Shown one piece after another: positions 27,001 to 30,000 of a stretch of 64,000 nucleotides of DNA; the stretch's first letter is position 1, and every line of letters begins with the position of its first letter. Origin of the DNA: Nitrospirota bacterium. GTDB lineage: Bacteria; Nitrospirota; Thermodesulfovibrionia; UBA6902. The position numbers are program-made. The stretch covers positions 12,675 through 76,674 of the forward strand of contig JACQZF010000002.1 of assembly GCA_016213945.1 (NCBI GenBank). Reading direction: 5' to 3'.

Positions 27001-30000
27001 TGTCCACCCCTCAGATACTCACCTCCGACAATGAAGAGGCGGAGATAGTGGTCGGCGAAAACGTTCCGTTTATATCAAAAAGAGAACGCGACATCACCAC
27101 CACCAATACAGTATTAAGCTCGATAGAGAGAAAAGACGTCGGCATAATGCTCAGGCTCACTCCCCAGATTACGGAAGGTGATTACGTCCGGCTTGATATC
27201 ATGCAGGAAATCTCAGCGCTCAAAGACACCCCGGAAAGCGTCCTCACAACAGTCGGACCTACAACTACAAAGCGCTCTACGAAAACCTCCGTTGTTGTTA
27301 AGGATGGACGCACCGTAGTGATCAGCGGTTTGATGCAGGAAAAAGACGAGGAGTCTGTGACAAAAATGCCATTGTTAGGCGATATACCTGTTTTAGGCTG
27401 GCTTTTCAAGACGAAAAACGTATCAAGAAACAAGACAAACCTTCTGGTATTTCTGTCGCCGCATGTAGTCAAGGAATCGGACCAACTGATAAAGATTACT
27501 GAGGAGAAACAGAAAGCATTTGTCGAGAGGGAAAAGTTTTATAATGAAGGTGAGCTGATGGTGAGGTTTAAAGACGATGTCTCAAGAGAAAGGGCGCTGG
27601 AGATCATCACGCAAAAGAAGGCGTCGGTTATAGCTTATTTTAAAGATATAAATGTCTACCAGATCCTGCTGAAATCCGGGAAGGAGGTGGAAGACGCCAT
27701 AAAAGAATTCTCTTCCCTGCCTGAAGTCCTCTACGCGGAACCAAATTACAGGATCAAAATAAATAACCCGCCGCCGGACTCTGATACAATGCAGAAAGAG
27801 AACCCAGCCGCGTCCCCTCAGGAGCAGGACATTAAATCAGAAAAAGAAAGCGCATCCACCCCGCAAGATCAGGAACAAAAAACTATCGACCCCCCTGCCC
27901 AGCCTCAAACCGAAAACAACCCGGCAATTGCAGCTCCCCCGGTTGAAACAACCGCGCCAACGGAAAAAAAAACTTTAAATACTGAGAAACCCGCGCCGGA
28001 AACAACCCCGTCAGGCAAATATTATATCCAGGTCGGCGCATGGAAAAATATTGAAAATGCACAGGGCGTGCTTGAAAAATTAAAAGGCGATTATCCCGAA
28101 ATATTCATTGTTGAGGAAAATAACTTTAACAAAGTTAGGGTCACCGGCATTATAAGCAGAGAACAGGGTCTGCTAATTGCGAAAGAGATCAAAAAGAAGT
28201 TGAACGTTAAACCGCTGCTGGTAAGAGTGAAGATTTGAATATGGAAACCATCGACAGCATAAAAGACGATGAAATGGAGTTCTCCCTTTTACAGGACCTG
28301 CCCCTTTCATTTGTAAAGGGAAATGTGTTCCTGCCTATGCGGAAAGAAGACGGCGAGCTCTTAGGAGTCATTGCTGATAACCGTGGGATCTTCGCGCTCA
28401 GGGACATGGCAAGGGGCCTGAATCTGAAGCCCCATCCCGTTCAGGCGGATGAGAAGGTAATTATCGACGCCATCAATCGCATCTACAGCCAGACCAGCAG
28501 GGTAAATGAAGTAATGGGAGACATCAAAGGCGAAGACCTGTCCATGGTCGCCACGGAGTTTGAATCACCGCAGGACCTGCTTGAGCTCACTGAAGAGGCC
28601 CCGATAATACGATTGCTCAATGCCATGCTTATGGAGGCCGCCAAGGAAAAGGCGAGCGATATTCATGTAGAGCCATATGAAAAGGGACTCGATGTACGGT
28701 TCAGGGTGGACGGAATATTGCGCAAGGTGCTGAGCCCTCCCAGGATAATCCAGGACGCGCTCATATCAAGGATAAAGATAATCGCAGGACTCGACATCGC
28801 GGAAAAAAGGCTACCGCAGGATGGAAGGATAAGGCTCCTTGTAGGCGGTAAAGATATCGACATCAGGGTCTCGATAATACCGACTGCTCTGGGTGAAAGG
28901 GCCGTTCTCAGATTGTTAGACAGGCAGGCAGGCATATTGAGCCTTGAAATGTTAGGCCTGGAGGATGAGATATTACGTGTGTTCAAAGAGGCCTTGTCCA
29001 GGCCGAACGGAATAATTCTCGTGACCGGCCCCACTGGCTCAGGCAAGACCACAACGCTATATGCATCACTATTGAAACTTAATACCGAGGAGAGAAACAT
29101 AATCACGGTTGAAGACCCGGTTGAATACCAGTTAAGCGGCATAGGACAGATGCAGGTGAACCCGAAAATAGGATTAACGTTTGCCGCTGGACTGCGTTCT
29201 ATTTTGAGGCAGGACCCGGACATCATGATGGTCGGTGAGATCAGGGACCTTGAGACCGCCGAGATCGCTGTACACGCCTCGCTTACAGGCCATCTCGTTC
29301 TCAGCACCCTGCATACAAATGACGCTCCGAGCGCATTGACGAGACTTATCGACATGGGGATAGAGCCGTTCCTCGTAGCATCGTCGCTTGTGTGCGTGCT
29401 GGCACAGAGGCTGGTCAGGGTGATCTGCCCTCACTGCAAAGAATCCTATACTCCGTCAAAAGAAGAGATAAGTTATCTTGAGATCGAGCCTGCGCCTAAG
29501 GTCCTTTATCGCGGCAAAGGCTGTGATAAATGTCTTGGCAAAGGTTATATCGGCAGGGCCGGGATTTACGAGCTGCTTGAGATAACCCCTGACATAAGAA
29601 CAATGATCGTGGAAAGAAAAGACGCGCAGGTCATCAGGAGAACGGCAGCATTAAAGTCCGGGTTTAAACCATTACAGAAAAACGCAGTCGAGAAGATCAT
29701 AAAAGGGGTTACAACAATAGAGGAAGTCCTGAGAGTAACGCAGAAGGATGCGGAAGCATGAAGAAGAAGACACAGAGGCACAGAGACACAAAGGCACAAA
29801 GTTTATTTTTTCACCTTTGTGCCTTTTCACCTTTGCGCCTTTGCACCTTTTAGCCATGCCTATTTTCAAATACAGAGGATATGACGCAAGCGGGACCGTG
29901 ATAGACGGCGCTATCGAGGCCGACGGGCCGAAAGATGCTGCAATTAAAATTAAAACAAAGGGCATCTTCCCGAAAGAGATCTCCGAATCAGTCCCCCGGC

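What the first reader, a model, noticed from the sequence alone, without database searches (positions are those of the whole stretch)
27500..28238. Secretin with C-terminal propeptide-like domain, low-complexity linker and SPOR domain
After the secretin domain, GspD continues for ~240 aa. There is a ~75-aa domain resembling subtilase I9 prodomains (MVRFKDDVSRERALEII...LPEVLYAEPNYRIK). Then comes a Pro/Gln/Glu-rich linker, then a SPOR-like peptidoglycan-binding domain (GKYYIQVGAWKNIENAQGVLEKLKG...). Secretins normally bind peptidoglycan through N-terminal AMIN domains. A C-terminal SPOR fusion would be a different solution for anchoring to the cell wall.
Basis: partly seen in the sequence, partly recalled or inferred. 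Interest (0 to 1): 0.55.

Follow-up and report, generated by a model that had tools for sequence, protein, structure and literature searches.

The report
Secretin with prodomain-like and SPOR tail
The outer-membrane pore protein (GspD) of this bacterium's type II secretion system carries an unusual C-terminal tail, made of a protease-prodomain-like module, a floppy linker and a cell-wall-binding SPOR domain, which is a lineage-specific and so far undescribed way to tie such a pore to the cell wall.

Summary
ORF 25827..28238 (+) is one unbroken 803-aa GspD secretin inside a complete T2SS (gspCDEF, then gspGHIJKL). After the secretin domain come four parts:
- an S-domain-like helix (552-569);
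- a Fervidolysin_NPro-like subtilase-prodomain fold (Pfam E 1e-13, AF2 pLDDT >90 in the fragment model);
- an 86-aa P/T/E/A/K/Q-rich disordered linker;
- a SPOR domain (Pfam E 5e-10, pLDDT >90). Its best PDB match is RlpA SPOR bound to denuded glycan, and the glycan-contact residues are kept.

Among the 120 closest homologues, 119 carry the prodomain-like module. The named ones are Nitrospirae/Thermodesulfovibrionia. In the loci examined from GTDB species genomes, the module is fused to a secretin only in that lineage. The linker+SPOR tail is present in 65 of the 120. It is absent from syntenic orthologues and has been gained or lost repeatedly.

The most likely role is a flexible tether, and possibly a septal targeting device, linking the outer-membrane pore to peptidoglycan. 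This is a positional variant of Legionella LspD (N-terminal SPOR) and PilQ (N-terminal AMIN). The role of the prodomain-like module is unknown; binding of a secreted subtilase is an untested possibility. Annotation pipelines already name the SPOR domain, but I found no paper describing this architecture.

The parts
25827..28238 (+). gspD: T2SS secretin, 803 aa plus stop codon
   Evidence: Continuous ORF. TIGR02517 type_II_gspD scores 475.7 bits against a cut-off of 351. Best PDB sequence matches are GspD 15-mers 5wq7, 5wln and 5zdh.
25827..25922 (+). Probable signal peptide (about residues 1-32, MKKTGHMNVVKTLCLICLLVFIFSLTPGLSFS|E); no lipobox seen
   Evidence: Read directly from the sequence. 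AF2 predicts a hydrophobic helix at 5-25. No signal-peptide predictor was available, so this is an inference.
25953..26165 (+). N0 domain (residues 43-113)
   Evidence: PF21305, E 2e-23.
26448..26690 (+). Secretin_N (N-domain) best stretch, residues 208-288; a second copy lies upstream
   Evidence: PF03958, E 5.4e-24, two stretches.
26985..27473 (+). Secretin beta-barrel domain (residues 387-549)
   Evidence: PF00263, E 3.6e-50.
27480..27533 (+). S-domain-like alpha-helix (residues 552-569)
   Evidence: AF2 helix in both models. The phmmer alignment to E. coli GspD 5wq7 runs to query residue 570 / chain residue 593 of 627, and the alignment to V. cholerae GspD 5wq8 runs to 586.
27540..27749 (+). 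Subtilase-prodomain-like module (Fervidolysin_NPro-like), beta-alpha-beta-beta-alpha-beta, residues 572-641, ending in the motif LYAEPNY
   Evidence: PF22148 at 561-640, E 1.4e-13. pLDDT is 90-96 in the fragment model and 84-89 in the full-length model. Foldseek matches 3whi, 1r6v and 1spb_P. Precomputed Pfam lists it in 119 of the 120 closest homologues.
27750..28007 (+). Disordered linker, 86 aa (residues 642-727): P 17%, T 13%, E 12%, A 10%, K 9%, Q 9%; net charge -6
   Evidence: Composition. pLDDT is below 50 in the fragment model and about 25 in the full-length model. The region does not align, and its length across homologues is about 50-230 aa. No tandem repeat.
28008..28226 (+). SPOR domain (residues 728-800), with Q735/A738/W739 and F767/K769/R771 on the beta-sheet
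   Evidence: PF05036, E 4.6e-10. pLDDT 88-95. Foldseek top hits are RlpA SPOR 6i09/6i05 and CwlC 1x60. Profile alignment to FtsN SPOR 1uta. Residue roles from PMC6895207.
24671..25594 (+). gspC (T2SSC + PDZ)
   Evidence: PF11356 E 6.6e-10 and PF00595 E 1.1e-7.
28235..29761 (+). gspE ATPase. The listed TTG start overlaps the gspD stop; an ATG at 28241 is the more likely start.
   Evidence: PF00437, E 1.3e-143. Junction read directly.
29748..31028 (+). gspF platform protein
   Evidence: PF00482, E 2.2e-60.
35867..40373 (+). gspG-H-I-J-K-L and a probable gspM: pseudopilins and the inner-membrane platform
   Evidence: T2SSG, N_methyl, T2SSJ, T2SSK and GspL_C/T2SSL hits. The last ORF (39858-40373) has no Pfam hit and is called gspM by position only.

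Best explanation
This is the GspD secretin of a complete type II secretion system in a Thermodesulfovibrionia-type Nitrospirota bacterium. The distal part of the usual C-terminal S-domain is replaced by a folded subtilase-prodomain-like module, followed by an 86-residue disordered tether and a canonical SPOR domain. A secretin is a 15-mer, so about 15 SPOR domains would hang from the outer-membrane-proximal rim of the barrel on flexible leashes. There they would bind peptidoglycan glycan strands that lack stem peptides (denuded glycans), tying the pore to the cell wall from the outer-membrane side. SPOR ligands are enriched at septa and new poles, so the tail probably also biases where the secretin is assembled or retained. 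SHOWN: the architecture, both folds, the disorder of the linker, conservation of the glycan-contact residues, homology to the S-domain start, and the lineage distribution. INFERRED: peptidoglycan binding, periplasmic location of the tail, 15-fold stoichiometry, that the linker can span the distance from outer membrane to peptidoglycan, and the role of the prodomain-like module. My default reading of that module is a structural decoration on the outside of the barrel that stands in for the distal S-domain.
For: The ORF is continuous and lies in a T2SS operon. PF22148 and PF05036 both score above their gathering cut-offs. Two AF2 models give two confident beta-alpha-beta-beta-alpha-beta domains separated by a stretch with pLDDT <50. 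The top Foldseek hit is RlpA SPOR bound to denuded glycan (6i09, TM 0.76, 30% identity), followed by CwlC SPOR; pro-subtilisin, fervidolysin and the BPN' prosegment match the other domain. The profile alignment to FtsN SPOR puts Q735 on Q251, A738 on S254, F767 on W283 and K769 on R285. PMC6895207 identifies these positions (RlpA Q270, A273, F274, L307, R309, R311) as the glycan contacts. Q735, G737 and W739 are invariant in the 20-sequence tail alignment and at least 90% conserved among the 65 aligned long forms; F767 and R771 are at least 90% conserved in the tail alignment. Homology to the E. coli and V. cholerae GspD S-domain start reaches residues 570 and 586. From established knowledge, the S-domain is where periplasmic pilotin lipoproteins bind, so the tail is periplasmic. 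Precedents for PG-binding domains on secretins are LspD with an N-terminal SPOR (PMC9239104, PMC6617341) and PilQ AMIN domains, which bind PG and recruit the machine to division sites (PMC5285504). No GspA/B, pilotin or lipobox was found in the operon.
Against: The tail is dispensable. 55 of the 120 closest homologues lack it, including syntenic orthologues that end 8 residues after the prodomain-like module. Only 3 of the 30 GTDB species loci with the secretin-prodomain fusion have it. No binding or localisation data exist. K769 replaces the Arg of FtsN/RlpA and is not fully conserved. The structural reading of the prodomain-like module has no positive evidence. One paper states that the PilQ C-terminus is surface-exposed (PMC5285504); if that held here, SPOR could not reach peptidoglycan.
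Confidence: 0.6

Rival explanations
1. The SPOR tail is mainly a targeting device rather than a static anchor. It captures GspD monomers at septal or new-pole peptidoglycan, where amidases have made denuded glycans. The large pore is then assembled where the wall is being remodelled, and the T2SS ends up polar. This overlaps with the best explanation and does not exclude it.
For: SPOR domains recognise denuded glycans enriched at the septum (PMC6895207). PilQ AMIN domains, which bind the same kind of peptidoglycan, recruit the T4P machine to future division sites before oligomerisation (PMC5285504). The same role was suggested for the SPOR of Legionella LspD (PMC6617341). The glycan-contact residues are conserved here.
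Against: There are no localisation data for this lineage. Orthologues without the tail evidently assemble their T2SS, so targeting through SPOR cannot be essential.
Confidence: 0.3
2. The prodomain-like module is a working subtilase-binding unit. As a secretin-tethered prodomain/I9-type inhibitor it would dock, chaperone or inhibit a T2SS-secreted S8 protease at the pore. In long forms the linker+SPOR begins where a protease would normally cleave its prodomain, so the tether might be cleavable.
For: The module belongs by sequence and by fold to genuine S8 prodomains. In S8 peptidases the mature enzyme (PNDP..WGLHNTGQ) starts 5-7 residues after EPNY. Short-form secretins and small stand-alone NPro ORFs located next to peptidase genes end 4-8 residues after EPNY, which is the length of a processed prodomain with a free substrate-like tail. 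For example, a secretin ends EPNYIMKIQ* while a Nitrospirota peptidase reads EPNYIVTIQ-NTPNDP. E638 and P639 are invariant among the 65 aligned long forms. Related Nitrospirota genomes encode S8 peptidases with this prodomain, one about 10 kb from gspD on the same contig (L021/L070).
Against: The window contains no S8 peptidase. The EPNY motif was the retrieval pattern, so sharing it is partly by construction. The conserved residues are mostly core positions, which is equally expected for a purely structural domain. No interaction was modelled or measured.
Confidence: 0.12
3. The extension is an assembly or frameshift artefact, or a chance HMM match, joining a secretin to an unrelated downstream gene.
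For: None found.
Against: There is a single ORF with no stop, and gspE starts at the junction. The same architecture recurs in 65 homologues from independent assemblies at 55-86% identity. Both domains score above the curated cut-offs and fold with high confidence.
Confidence: 0.01

Closest known systems
Legionella pneumophila LspD (T2SS secretin with a SPOR domain)
   Same: It is a GspD-family secretin that carries its own SPOR peptidoglycan-binding domain, in a T2SS with no GspA/B homologue (PMC9239104, PMC6617341).
   Different: In LspD the SPOR is N-terminal, just before N0, at the inner-membrane-proximal base of the channel. Here it is at the extreme C-terminus, after the barrel, the S-domain helix, a prodomain-like module and an 86-aa tether, so it starts from the outer-membrane-proximal rim. 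LspD is described as the only T2SS secretin known to have a SPOR domain.
PilQ type IVa pilus secretins with N-terminal AMIN domains (P. aeruginosa, M. xanthus)
   Same: The secretin subunit itself carries domains that bind septal or denuded peptidoglycan, which anchor it and target it to division sites (PMC5285504).
   Different: The domain family differs (AMIN, not SPOR; no AMIN hit here), as do the terminus (N, not C) and the machine (T4P, not T2SS).
Classical GspD S-domain with pilotin (GspS/AspS) and GspA/GspB peptidoglycan scaffolds
   Same: The secretin core is the same, and the first S-domain helix is conserved (alignment to 5wq7 and 5wq8 reaches residues 570-586). The need to target and scaffold the secretin at the outer membrane and peptidoglycan is the same (PMC9239104).
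   Different: The distal S-domain is replaced by a 70-aa folded prodomain-like module. No pilotin, GspA or GspB was found in the operon, and peptidoglycan binding is built into the secretin.
Subtilase N-terminal prodomains and I9-type inhibitors (fervidolysin 1R6V, subtilisin BPN'/E prosegment)
   Same: The Pfam family is the same (PF22148), the fold is the same (Foldseek TM about 0.73 to 1spb_P) and the C-terminal EPNY motif is the same.
   Different: The module is not attached to any S8 catalytic domain. It sits at the C-terminus of an outer-membrane channel. In the loci examined from GTDB species genomes, this fusion occurs only in Thermodesulfovibrionia-type Nitrospirota.
SPOR proteins RlpA, FtsN, DedD, DamX and CwlC
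   Same: The SPOR fold and the conserved Gln, aromatic and basic glycan-contact residues are shared. The layout of a disordered P/Q-rich linker preceding a C-terminal SPOR resembles FtsN, DedD and RlpA, and weak full-length NCBIfam hits to those proteins cover the linker plus SPOR.
   Different: Those proteins are inner-membrane or lipoprotein-anchored division or lytic factors. Here the anchor is an outer-membrane secretin.

Membership tests
T2SS secretin GspD (TIGR02517 / PF00263) | Full-length equivalog HMM above the curated cut-off | tested here: met
   TIGR02517 scores 475.7 bits against a cut-off of 351.35. PilQ, MshL and SctC models all score below their cut-offs.
T2SS secretin GspD (TIGR02517 / PF00263) | N0, N-domains and a secretin barrel domain in order | tested here: met
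   PF21305 at 43-113, PF03958 in two copies, PF00263 at 387-549. Sequence matches to GspD cryo-EM entries 5wq7, 5wln and 6hcg.
T2SS secretin GspD (TIGR02517 / PF00263) | Encoded alongside the other T2SS core genes | tested here: met
   gspC lies upstream, gspE and gspF downstream, and gspG-L about 5 kb further on. Relatives show the same synteny.
T2SS secretin GspD (TIGR02517 / PF00263) | Complete C-terminal S-domain that binds a pilotin | tested here: inconclusive
   Only the first helix (552-569) aligns to S-domains, and the remainder is replaced by the prodomain-like module. No pilotin was detected among the neighbouring ORFs scanned, but small lipoproteins could have been missed.
SPOR domain (PF05036) | HMM match above the gathering score | tested here: met
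   40.1 bits against 21, E 4.6e-10, covering profile positions 1-75 of 76.
SPOR domain (PF05036) | Beta-alpha-beta-beta-alpha-beta (RNP-like) fold | tested here: met
   AF2 predicts E732-739, H742-753, E759-764, E767-775, H778-792 and E797-800 with pLDDT about 90. Foldseek matches 6i09, 6i05 and 1x60 with probability 1.00 and TM 0.73-0.77.
SPOR domain (PF05036) | Conserved glycan-contact residues on the beta-sheet (FtsN Q251/S254/W283/R285; RlpA Q270/A273/F274/R309/R311) | tested here: met
   The corresponding residues here are Q735, A738, W739, F767, K769 and R771 (alignment; residue roles). Q735, G737 and W739 are invariant in the 20-sequence tail alignment and at least 90% conserved among the 65 aligned long forms. 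F767 and R771 are at least 90% conserved in the tail alignment. K769 is a conservative Arg-to-Lys change and is variable.
SPOR domain (PF05036) | Binds denuded peptidoglycan and localises to septa | not testable with these tools
   This needs a PG pull-down or ITC and localisation experiments.
Subtilase prodomain (PF22148 Fervidolysin_NPro-like; MEROPS I9-like) | HMM match above the gathering score | tested here: met
   PF22148 scores 51.4 bits against 21, E 1.4e-13. All 42 members scanned individually also match it.
   No PF05922 hit at E<=1. There is only a weak Peptidase_S8_N hit (PF16361, 15.8 bits against a cut-off of 30.5).
Subtilase prodomain (PF22148 Fervidolysin_NPro-like; MEROPS I9-like) | Prodomain fold | tested here: met
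   Foldseek matches 3whi, 1r6v, 1spb_P, 3cnq_P and 9fid with probability 1.00 and TM to target of 0.72-0.79 for the isolated prodomains.
Subtilase prodomain (PF22148 Fervidolysin_NPro-like; MEROPS I9-like) | Located N-terminal to an S8 catalytic domain in the same polypeptide | tested here: not met
   The protein and the whole window contain no S8 domain. The module follows a secretin domain instead.
Subtilase prodomain (PF22148 Fervidolysin_NPro-like; MEROPS I9-like) | Acts as an intramolecular chaperone or inhibitor of a subtilase | not testable with these tools
   This needs binding or inhibition assays, or multimer modelling, which was not available.
LspD-type SPOR secretin (Legionella) | SPOR domain N-terminal to N0 | tested here: not met
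   N0 starts at residue 43, directly after the signal peptide, and SPOR is at 728-799.
AMIN-bearing secretins (PilQ type) | One or more N-terminal AMIN domains | tested here: not met
   No AMIN hit at E<=1, and the PilQ subfamily model scores below its cut-off.

The most novel reading that the evidence does not exclude
The clade-wide prodomain-like module may be a functional subtilase prodomain displayed 15-fold on the periplasmic rim of the secretin. It would capture, fold or keep inhibited a T2SS-secreted S8 protease until export, as a pore-tethered analogue of the Lif steric chaperone for lipase. In SPOR-bearing forms the peptidoglycan tether would begin exactly at the position of the protease cleavage site, so the cargo protease could release the anchor.
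Probability: 0.1. Interest if true: 0.8.

Novelty: new variant of a known kind. Interest (0 to 1): 0.45.

Why it matters
How T2SS secretins are positioned and fixed relative to the cell wall is only partly understood. The known solutions are separate GspA/B scaffolds, pilotins, or, in Legionella alone, an N-terminal SPOR domain. This lineage shows a third geometry: a C-terminal, outer-membrane-proximal, flexibly tethered SPOR. Natural orthologues with and without the tail sit in the same syntenic locus, which makes a ready comparative test of what peptidoglycan tethering contributes. The fusion of a subtilase-prodomain fold to every GspD examined in this lineage is unexplained. If the module binds a protease, it would be a new form of coupling between cargo and pore. 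The organisms are uncultured or hard to grow, so the near-term value is for structural and heterologous work rather than physiology.

Tried and rejected
- **Frameshift or separate ORF:** rejected. The ORF is continuous and the architecture recurs in many independent assemblies.
- **Pfam I9:** no hit. The correct family is PF22148.
- **Homologue search with the 248-aa tail alone:** returned only 10 fragments of the same GspD family plus one S8 peptidase, so it was not useful as a survey.
- **Sequence-only PDB search with the single SPOR sequence:** gave only a weak CwlC hit and spurious beta-lactoglobulin matches. The profile search and the fold search were needed.
- **Split-gene idea:** I looked for a separate SPOR gene beside short-form gspD genes and found none within 3 kb.
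- **S8 peptidase, or another NPro-like or SPOR ORF, in the window:** none found.
- **DNA tandem repeats in the linker:** none.
- **Single origin of the SPOR tail:** rejected. An NJ tree of the secretin core needs about 15 state changes, against about 39 when states are shuffled. The tree is rough, and some short forms could be truncated gene calls.
- **Literature:** searches for GspD + prodomain + subtilisin and for Thermodesulfovibrionia + type II secretion found nothing.
- **The look-up of encoding contigs for the window's own protein:** no record.
- **Technical errors:** searches failed (residue limit; wrong frame).
- **Not done:** a third homologue search with the SPOR domain alone was not run, because one search showed that short queries perform poorly there. 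The full-length model was not used for a fold search.
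Full report
**1. Observation**

The finding's coordinates (27500-28238) fall in the last third of a single ORF, 25827..28238 on the + strand. It encodes 803 aa and ends in a TGA stop at 28236-28238. Both quoted peptides are present.

Pfam-A gives the following domains:
- N0 at residues 43-113.
- Two Secretin_N domains.
- Secretin at 387-549.
- Fervidolysin_NPro-like (PF22148) at 561-640: E 1.4e-13, 51.4 bits, gathering score 21.
- SPOR (PF05036) at 728-799: E 4.6e-10, 40.1 bits, gathering score 21.

The GspD equivalog TIGR02517 scores 476 bits against a cut-off of 351. 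The PilQ, MshL and SctC models fall below their cut-offs.

**2. Structure**

I ran two AlphaFold2 predictions. One covered residues 549-803 with a 20-sequence alignment of tails. The other covered the full length with 65 homologues. They agree:

| Element | Residues | pLDDT |
|---|---|---|
| Alpha-helix | 552-569 | 55-68 |
| First beta-alpha-beta-beta-alpha-beta domain | 572-641 | 84-96 |
| Unstructured stretch | 644-727 | 25-46 |
| Second beta-alpha-beta-beta-alpha-beta domain | 732-800 | 88-95 |

Foldseek against the PDB ranks these hits first: the RlpA SPOR domain of P. aeruginosa in complex with denuded glycan (6i09, TM 0.76, 30% identity), apo RlpA SPOR (6i05), and CwlC SPOR (1x60). They are followed by pro-subtilisin E (3whi), fervidolysin (1r6v), the subtilisin BPN' prosegment (1spb_P, TM 0.73) and the furin/PC1 prodomain.

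The linker (residues 642-727, 86 aa) is rich in P, T, E, A, K and Q, with net charge -6. It is not a DNA tandem repeat. It is unalignable across homologues, where its length ranges from about 50 to 230 aa.

**3. SPOR binding site**

A profile of the tails aligns to FtsN SPOR (1uta) with Q735 on Q251, A738 on S254, F767 on W283 and K769 on R285.

The RlpA-glycan structure paper (PMC6895207) describes the contacts:
- RlpA Q270 (equivalent to FtsN Q251) is the key hydrogen-bond donor.
- A273, F274, A275 and N276 provide backbone and CH/pi contacts.
- R309 (equivalent to FtsN R285) and R311 form the basic patch.

Here the motif Q735-V-G-A738-W739-K-N741 and the strand F767-N-K769-V-R771 reproduce that pattern. 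Q735, G737 and W739 are invariant in the 20-sequence tail alignment and at least 90% conserved among the 65 aligned long forms. F767 and R771 are at least 90% conserved in the tail alignment. The domain therefore looks like a competent SPOR domain.

**4. Relation to the classical S-domain and topology**

The phmmer alignments to E. coli K-12 GspD (5wq7) and V. cholerae GspD (5wq8) run past the barrel, to query residues 570 and 586. So helix 552-569 corresponds to the start of the S-domain, and the prodomain-like module occupies the place of its distal part.

From established knowledge of T2SS secretins, the S-domain lies on the periplasmic outside of the barrel, where outer-membrane lipoprotein pilotins bind it. 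I infer from this that the tail is periplasmic and starts close to the outer membrane. An 86-residue disordered chain has a contour length of about 30 nm, which is ample to reach the peptidoglycan layer; this too is inference.

The N-terminus has a signal-peptide-like sequence without a lipobox, judged by eye.

**5. Genomic context**

The window carries a complete T2SS in two blocks:
- gspC (24671-25594), gspD, gspE (28235/28241-29761) and gspF (29748-31028).
- After about 5 kb of unrelated minus-strand genes, gspG-H-I-J-K-L and a probable gspM (35867-40373).

No GspA/B, GspS or GspN match was found among the ORFs scanned.

**6. Distribution**

The identical protein is in NCBI as "SPOR domain-containing protein [Nitrospirae bacterium]". 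One JGI entry is named "GspD/PulD (secretin)/cell division septation protein DedD". Annotation pipelines have therefore already seen the fusion.

Findings on distribution:
- Precomputed Pfam lists PF22148 in 119 of the 120 closest homologues.
- Lengths fall into two classes. Short forms end 8-73 aa after the YAEPNY motif, and long forms continue for 125-308 aa.
- 35 of the 42 long forms without a precomputed SPOR call still hit PF05036 at E<=0.01. With a family-specific HMM, 65 of 120 carry SPOR.
- A short-form orthologue (P0016) and a long-form orthologue (P0005) lie in the same syntenic locus, so they differ only by the tail.
- No short-form locus has a separate SPOR gene within 3 kb.
- On a rough NJ tree of the secretin core, SPOR presence requires about 15 changes, against about 39 when states are shuffled. 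The tail is therefore clustered but evolutionarily labile.
- In GTDB species genomes, 30 of the best 80 loci carrying the prodomain-like module are secretin fusions, and all 30 carry Nitrospirae/Nitrospirota-type labels or are unclassified. Only 3 of the 30 have SPOR. The other 50 loci, from many phyla, are ordinary N-terminal prodomains of S8 peptidases or small stand-alone ORFs next to such peptidases.
- An exhaustive search of 1.84 billion cluster representatives with the module alone found 502 relatives at E<=1e-3, in the same three contexts.

**7. The prodomain-like module**

This is the constant feature of the lineage and the less explained one.

In real peptidases, the mature enzyme (PNDPxF..WGLHNTGQ) begins 5-7 residues after EPNY. 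Short-form secretins and the stand-alone ORFs stop 4-8 residues after EPNY (for example EPNYIMKIQ*). That is the length of a processed prodomain or I9-type inhibitor with a free tail. In the long forms, the linker starts at that same point.

This is compatible with a protease-binding role, but it does not demonstrate one. The EPNY motif was the retrieval pattern, the window contains no S8 gene, and no complex could be modelled. My default reading is a structural module on the barrel exterior. I give the protease-docking reading about 10%.

**8. Comparison with known systems**

The literature held here states that, among T2SS, only Legionella LspD is known to have a SPOR domain, and that it is N-terminal to N0 (PMC9239104, PMC6617341). 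PilQ uses N-terminal AMIN domains, which bind peptidoglycan and recruit the pilus machine to future division sites (PMC5285504).

I found no paper on a C-terminal SPOR, or on a prodomain fold, in any secretin, nor on T2SS in this lineage.

The protein is a bona fide GspD and contains a bona fide SPOR domain. It is not an LspD-type or a PilQ-type arrangement, and its prodomain-like module fails the defining context of a prodomain because no S8 domain is attached.

**9. Verdict**

The feature is real and correctly read by the first stage. It is a new positional and architectural variant of a known kind: a secretin with a built-in peptidoglycan-binding domain. In addition, it carries an unexplained, lineage-wide prodomain-like module.

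The likely mechanism is a flexible tether between outer membrane and peptidoglycan, and/or septal targeting. That mechanism is inferred, not shown, and the tail is dispensable in about half of the close orthologues. Interest is moderate at 0.45.

Noticed in passing
window 1313..3619 (-): A second GspD-like secretin of 768 aa (N0 at 141-210, three Secretin_N domains, Secretin at 555-721). It has neither the prodomain-like module nor SPOR, and no adjacent T2SS genes were seen. It lies about 0.9 kb from an IS200-like Y1 transposase gene (4529..5464, -). Its N-terminal extension of about 140 aa before N0 was not examined.
   Followed up: partly
window 14676..24244 (-): A giant 2142-aa RHS/Tc-toxin-like ORF (SpvB, TcdB_mid, RHS repeats, Laminin_G_3, Big and TSP3 domains), followed by an RHS-core ORF (21233..22459), an unassigned 174-aa ORF and a weak phage-tail-collar-like ORF (23243..24244). 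In relatives (L081, L083) the M48/TPR peptidase gene and gspC are about 6-7 kb apart; here they are about 16 kb apart. This block therefore looks like part of a variable insertion next to the T2SS.
   Followed up: partly
P0010, P0088, P0132 (homologues): Some GspD relatives carry two tandem copies of the prodomain-like module before the SPOR domain.
   Followed up: no
P0147, P0164, P0181, P0222, P0254: S8 peptidases with the NPro-like domain in two copies, one N-terminal and one at the extreme C-terminus after fn3, PKD or TIG domains. So the module also occurs outside its usual N-terminal position in proteins other than secretins.
   Followed up: no
L037, L038, L042, L045, L047, L056, L058, L073, L075: Small stand-alone NPro-like ORFs (about 125-175 aa as stop-to-stop frames) lie immediately upstream of S8 peptidase genes that have their own prodomain, mostly in Nitrospira-type genomes. 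They may be dedicated I9-type inhibitors.
   Followed up: no
window 28235..28243: The ORF lister starts gspE at a TTG that overlaps the gspD stop codon. An ATG at 28241, 2 nt after the stop, begins METIDSIKDD and matches the 2-nt spacing seen in the long-form relative L083, so it is the more likely start.
   Followed up: partly
window 31130..35715 (-): The T2SS operon is split by minus-strand housekeeping genes (HMGL-like, KDPG aldolase, DEAD-box helicase DbpA, CorA). Partial synteny of this interruption, covering the helicase and CorA, is seen in relatives L081 and L083.
   Followed up: partly
window 25598..25795 (+): A 65-aa ORF lies in the gspC-gspD intergenic gap. It has low-complexity, basic content and is probably not a gene. 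No pilotin-like lipoprotein was evident there.
   Followed up: no
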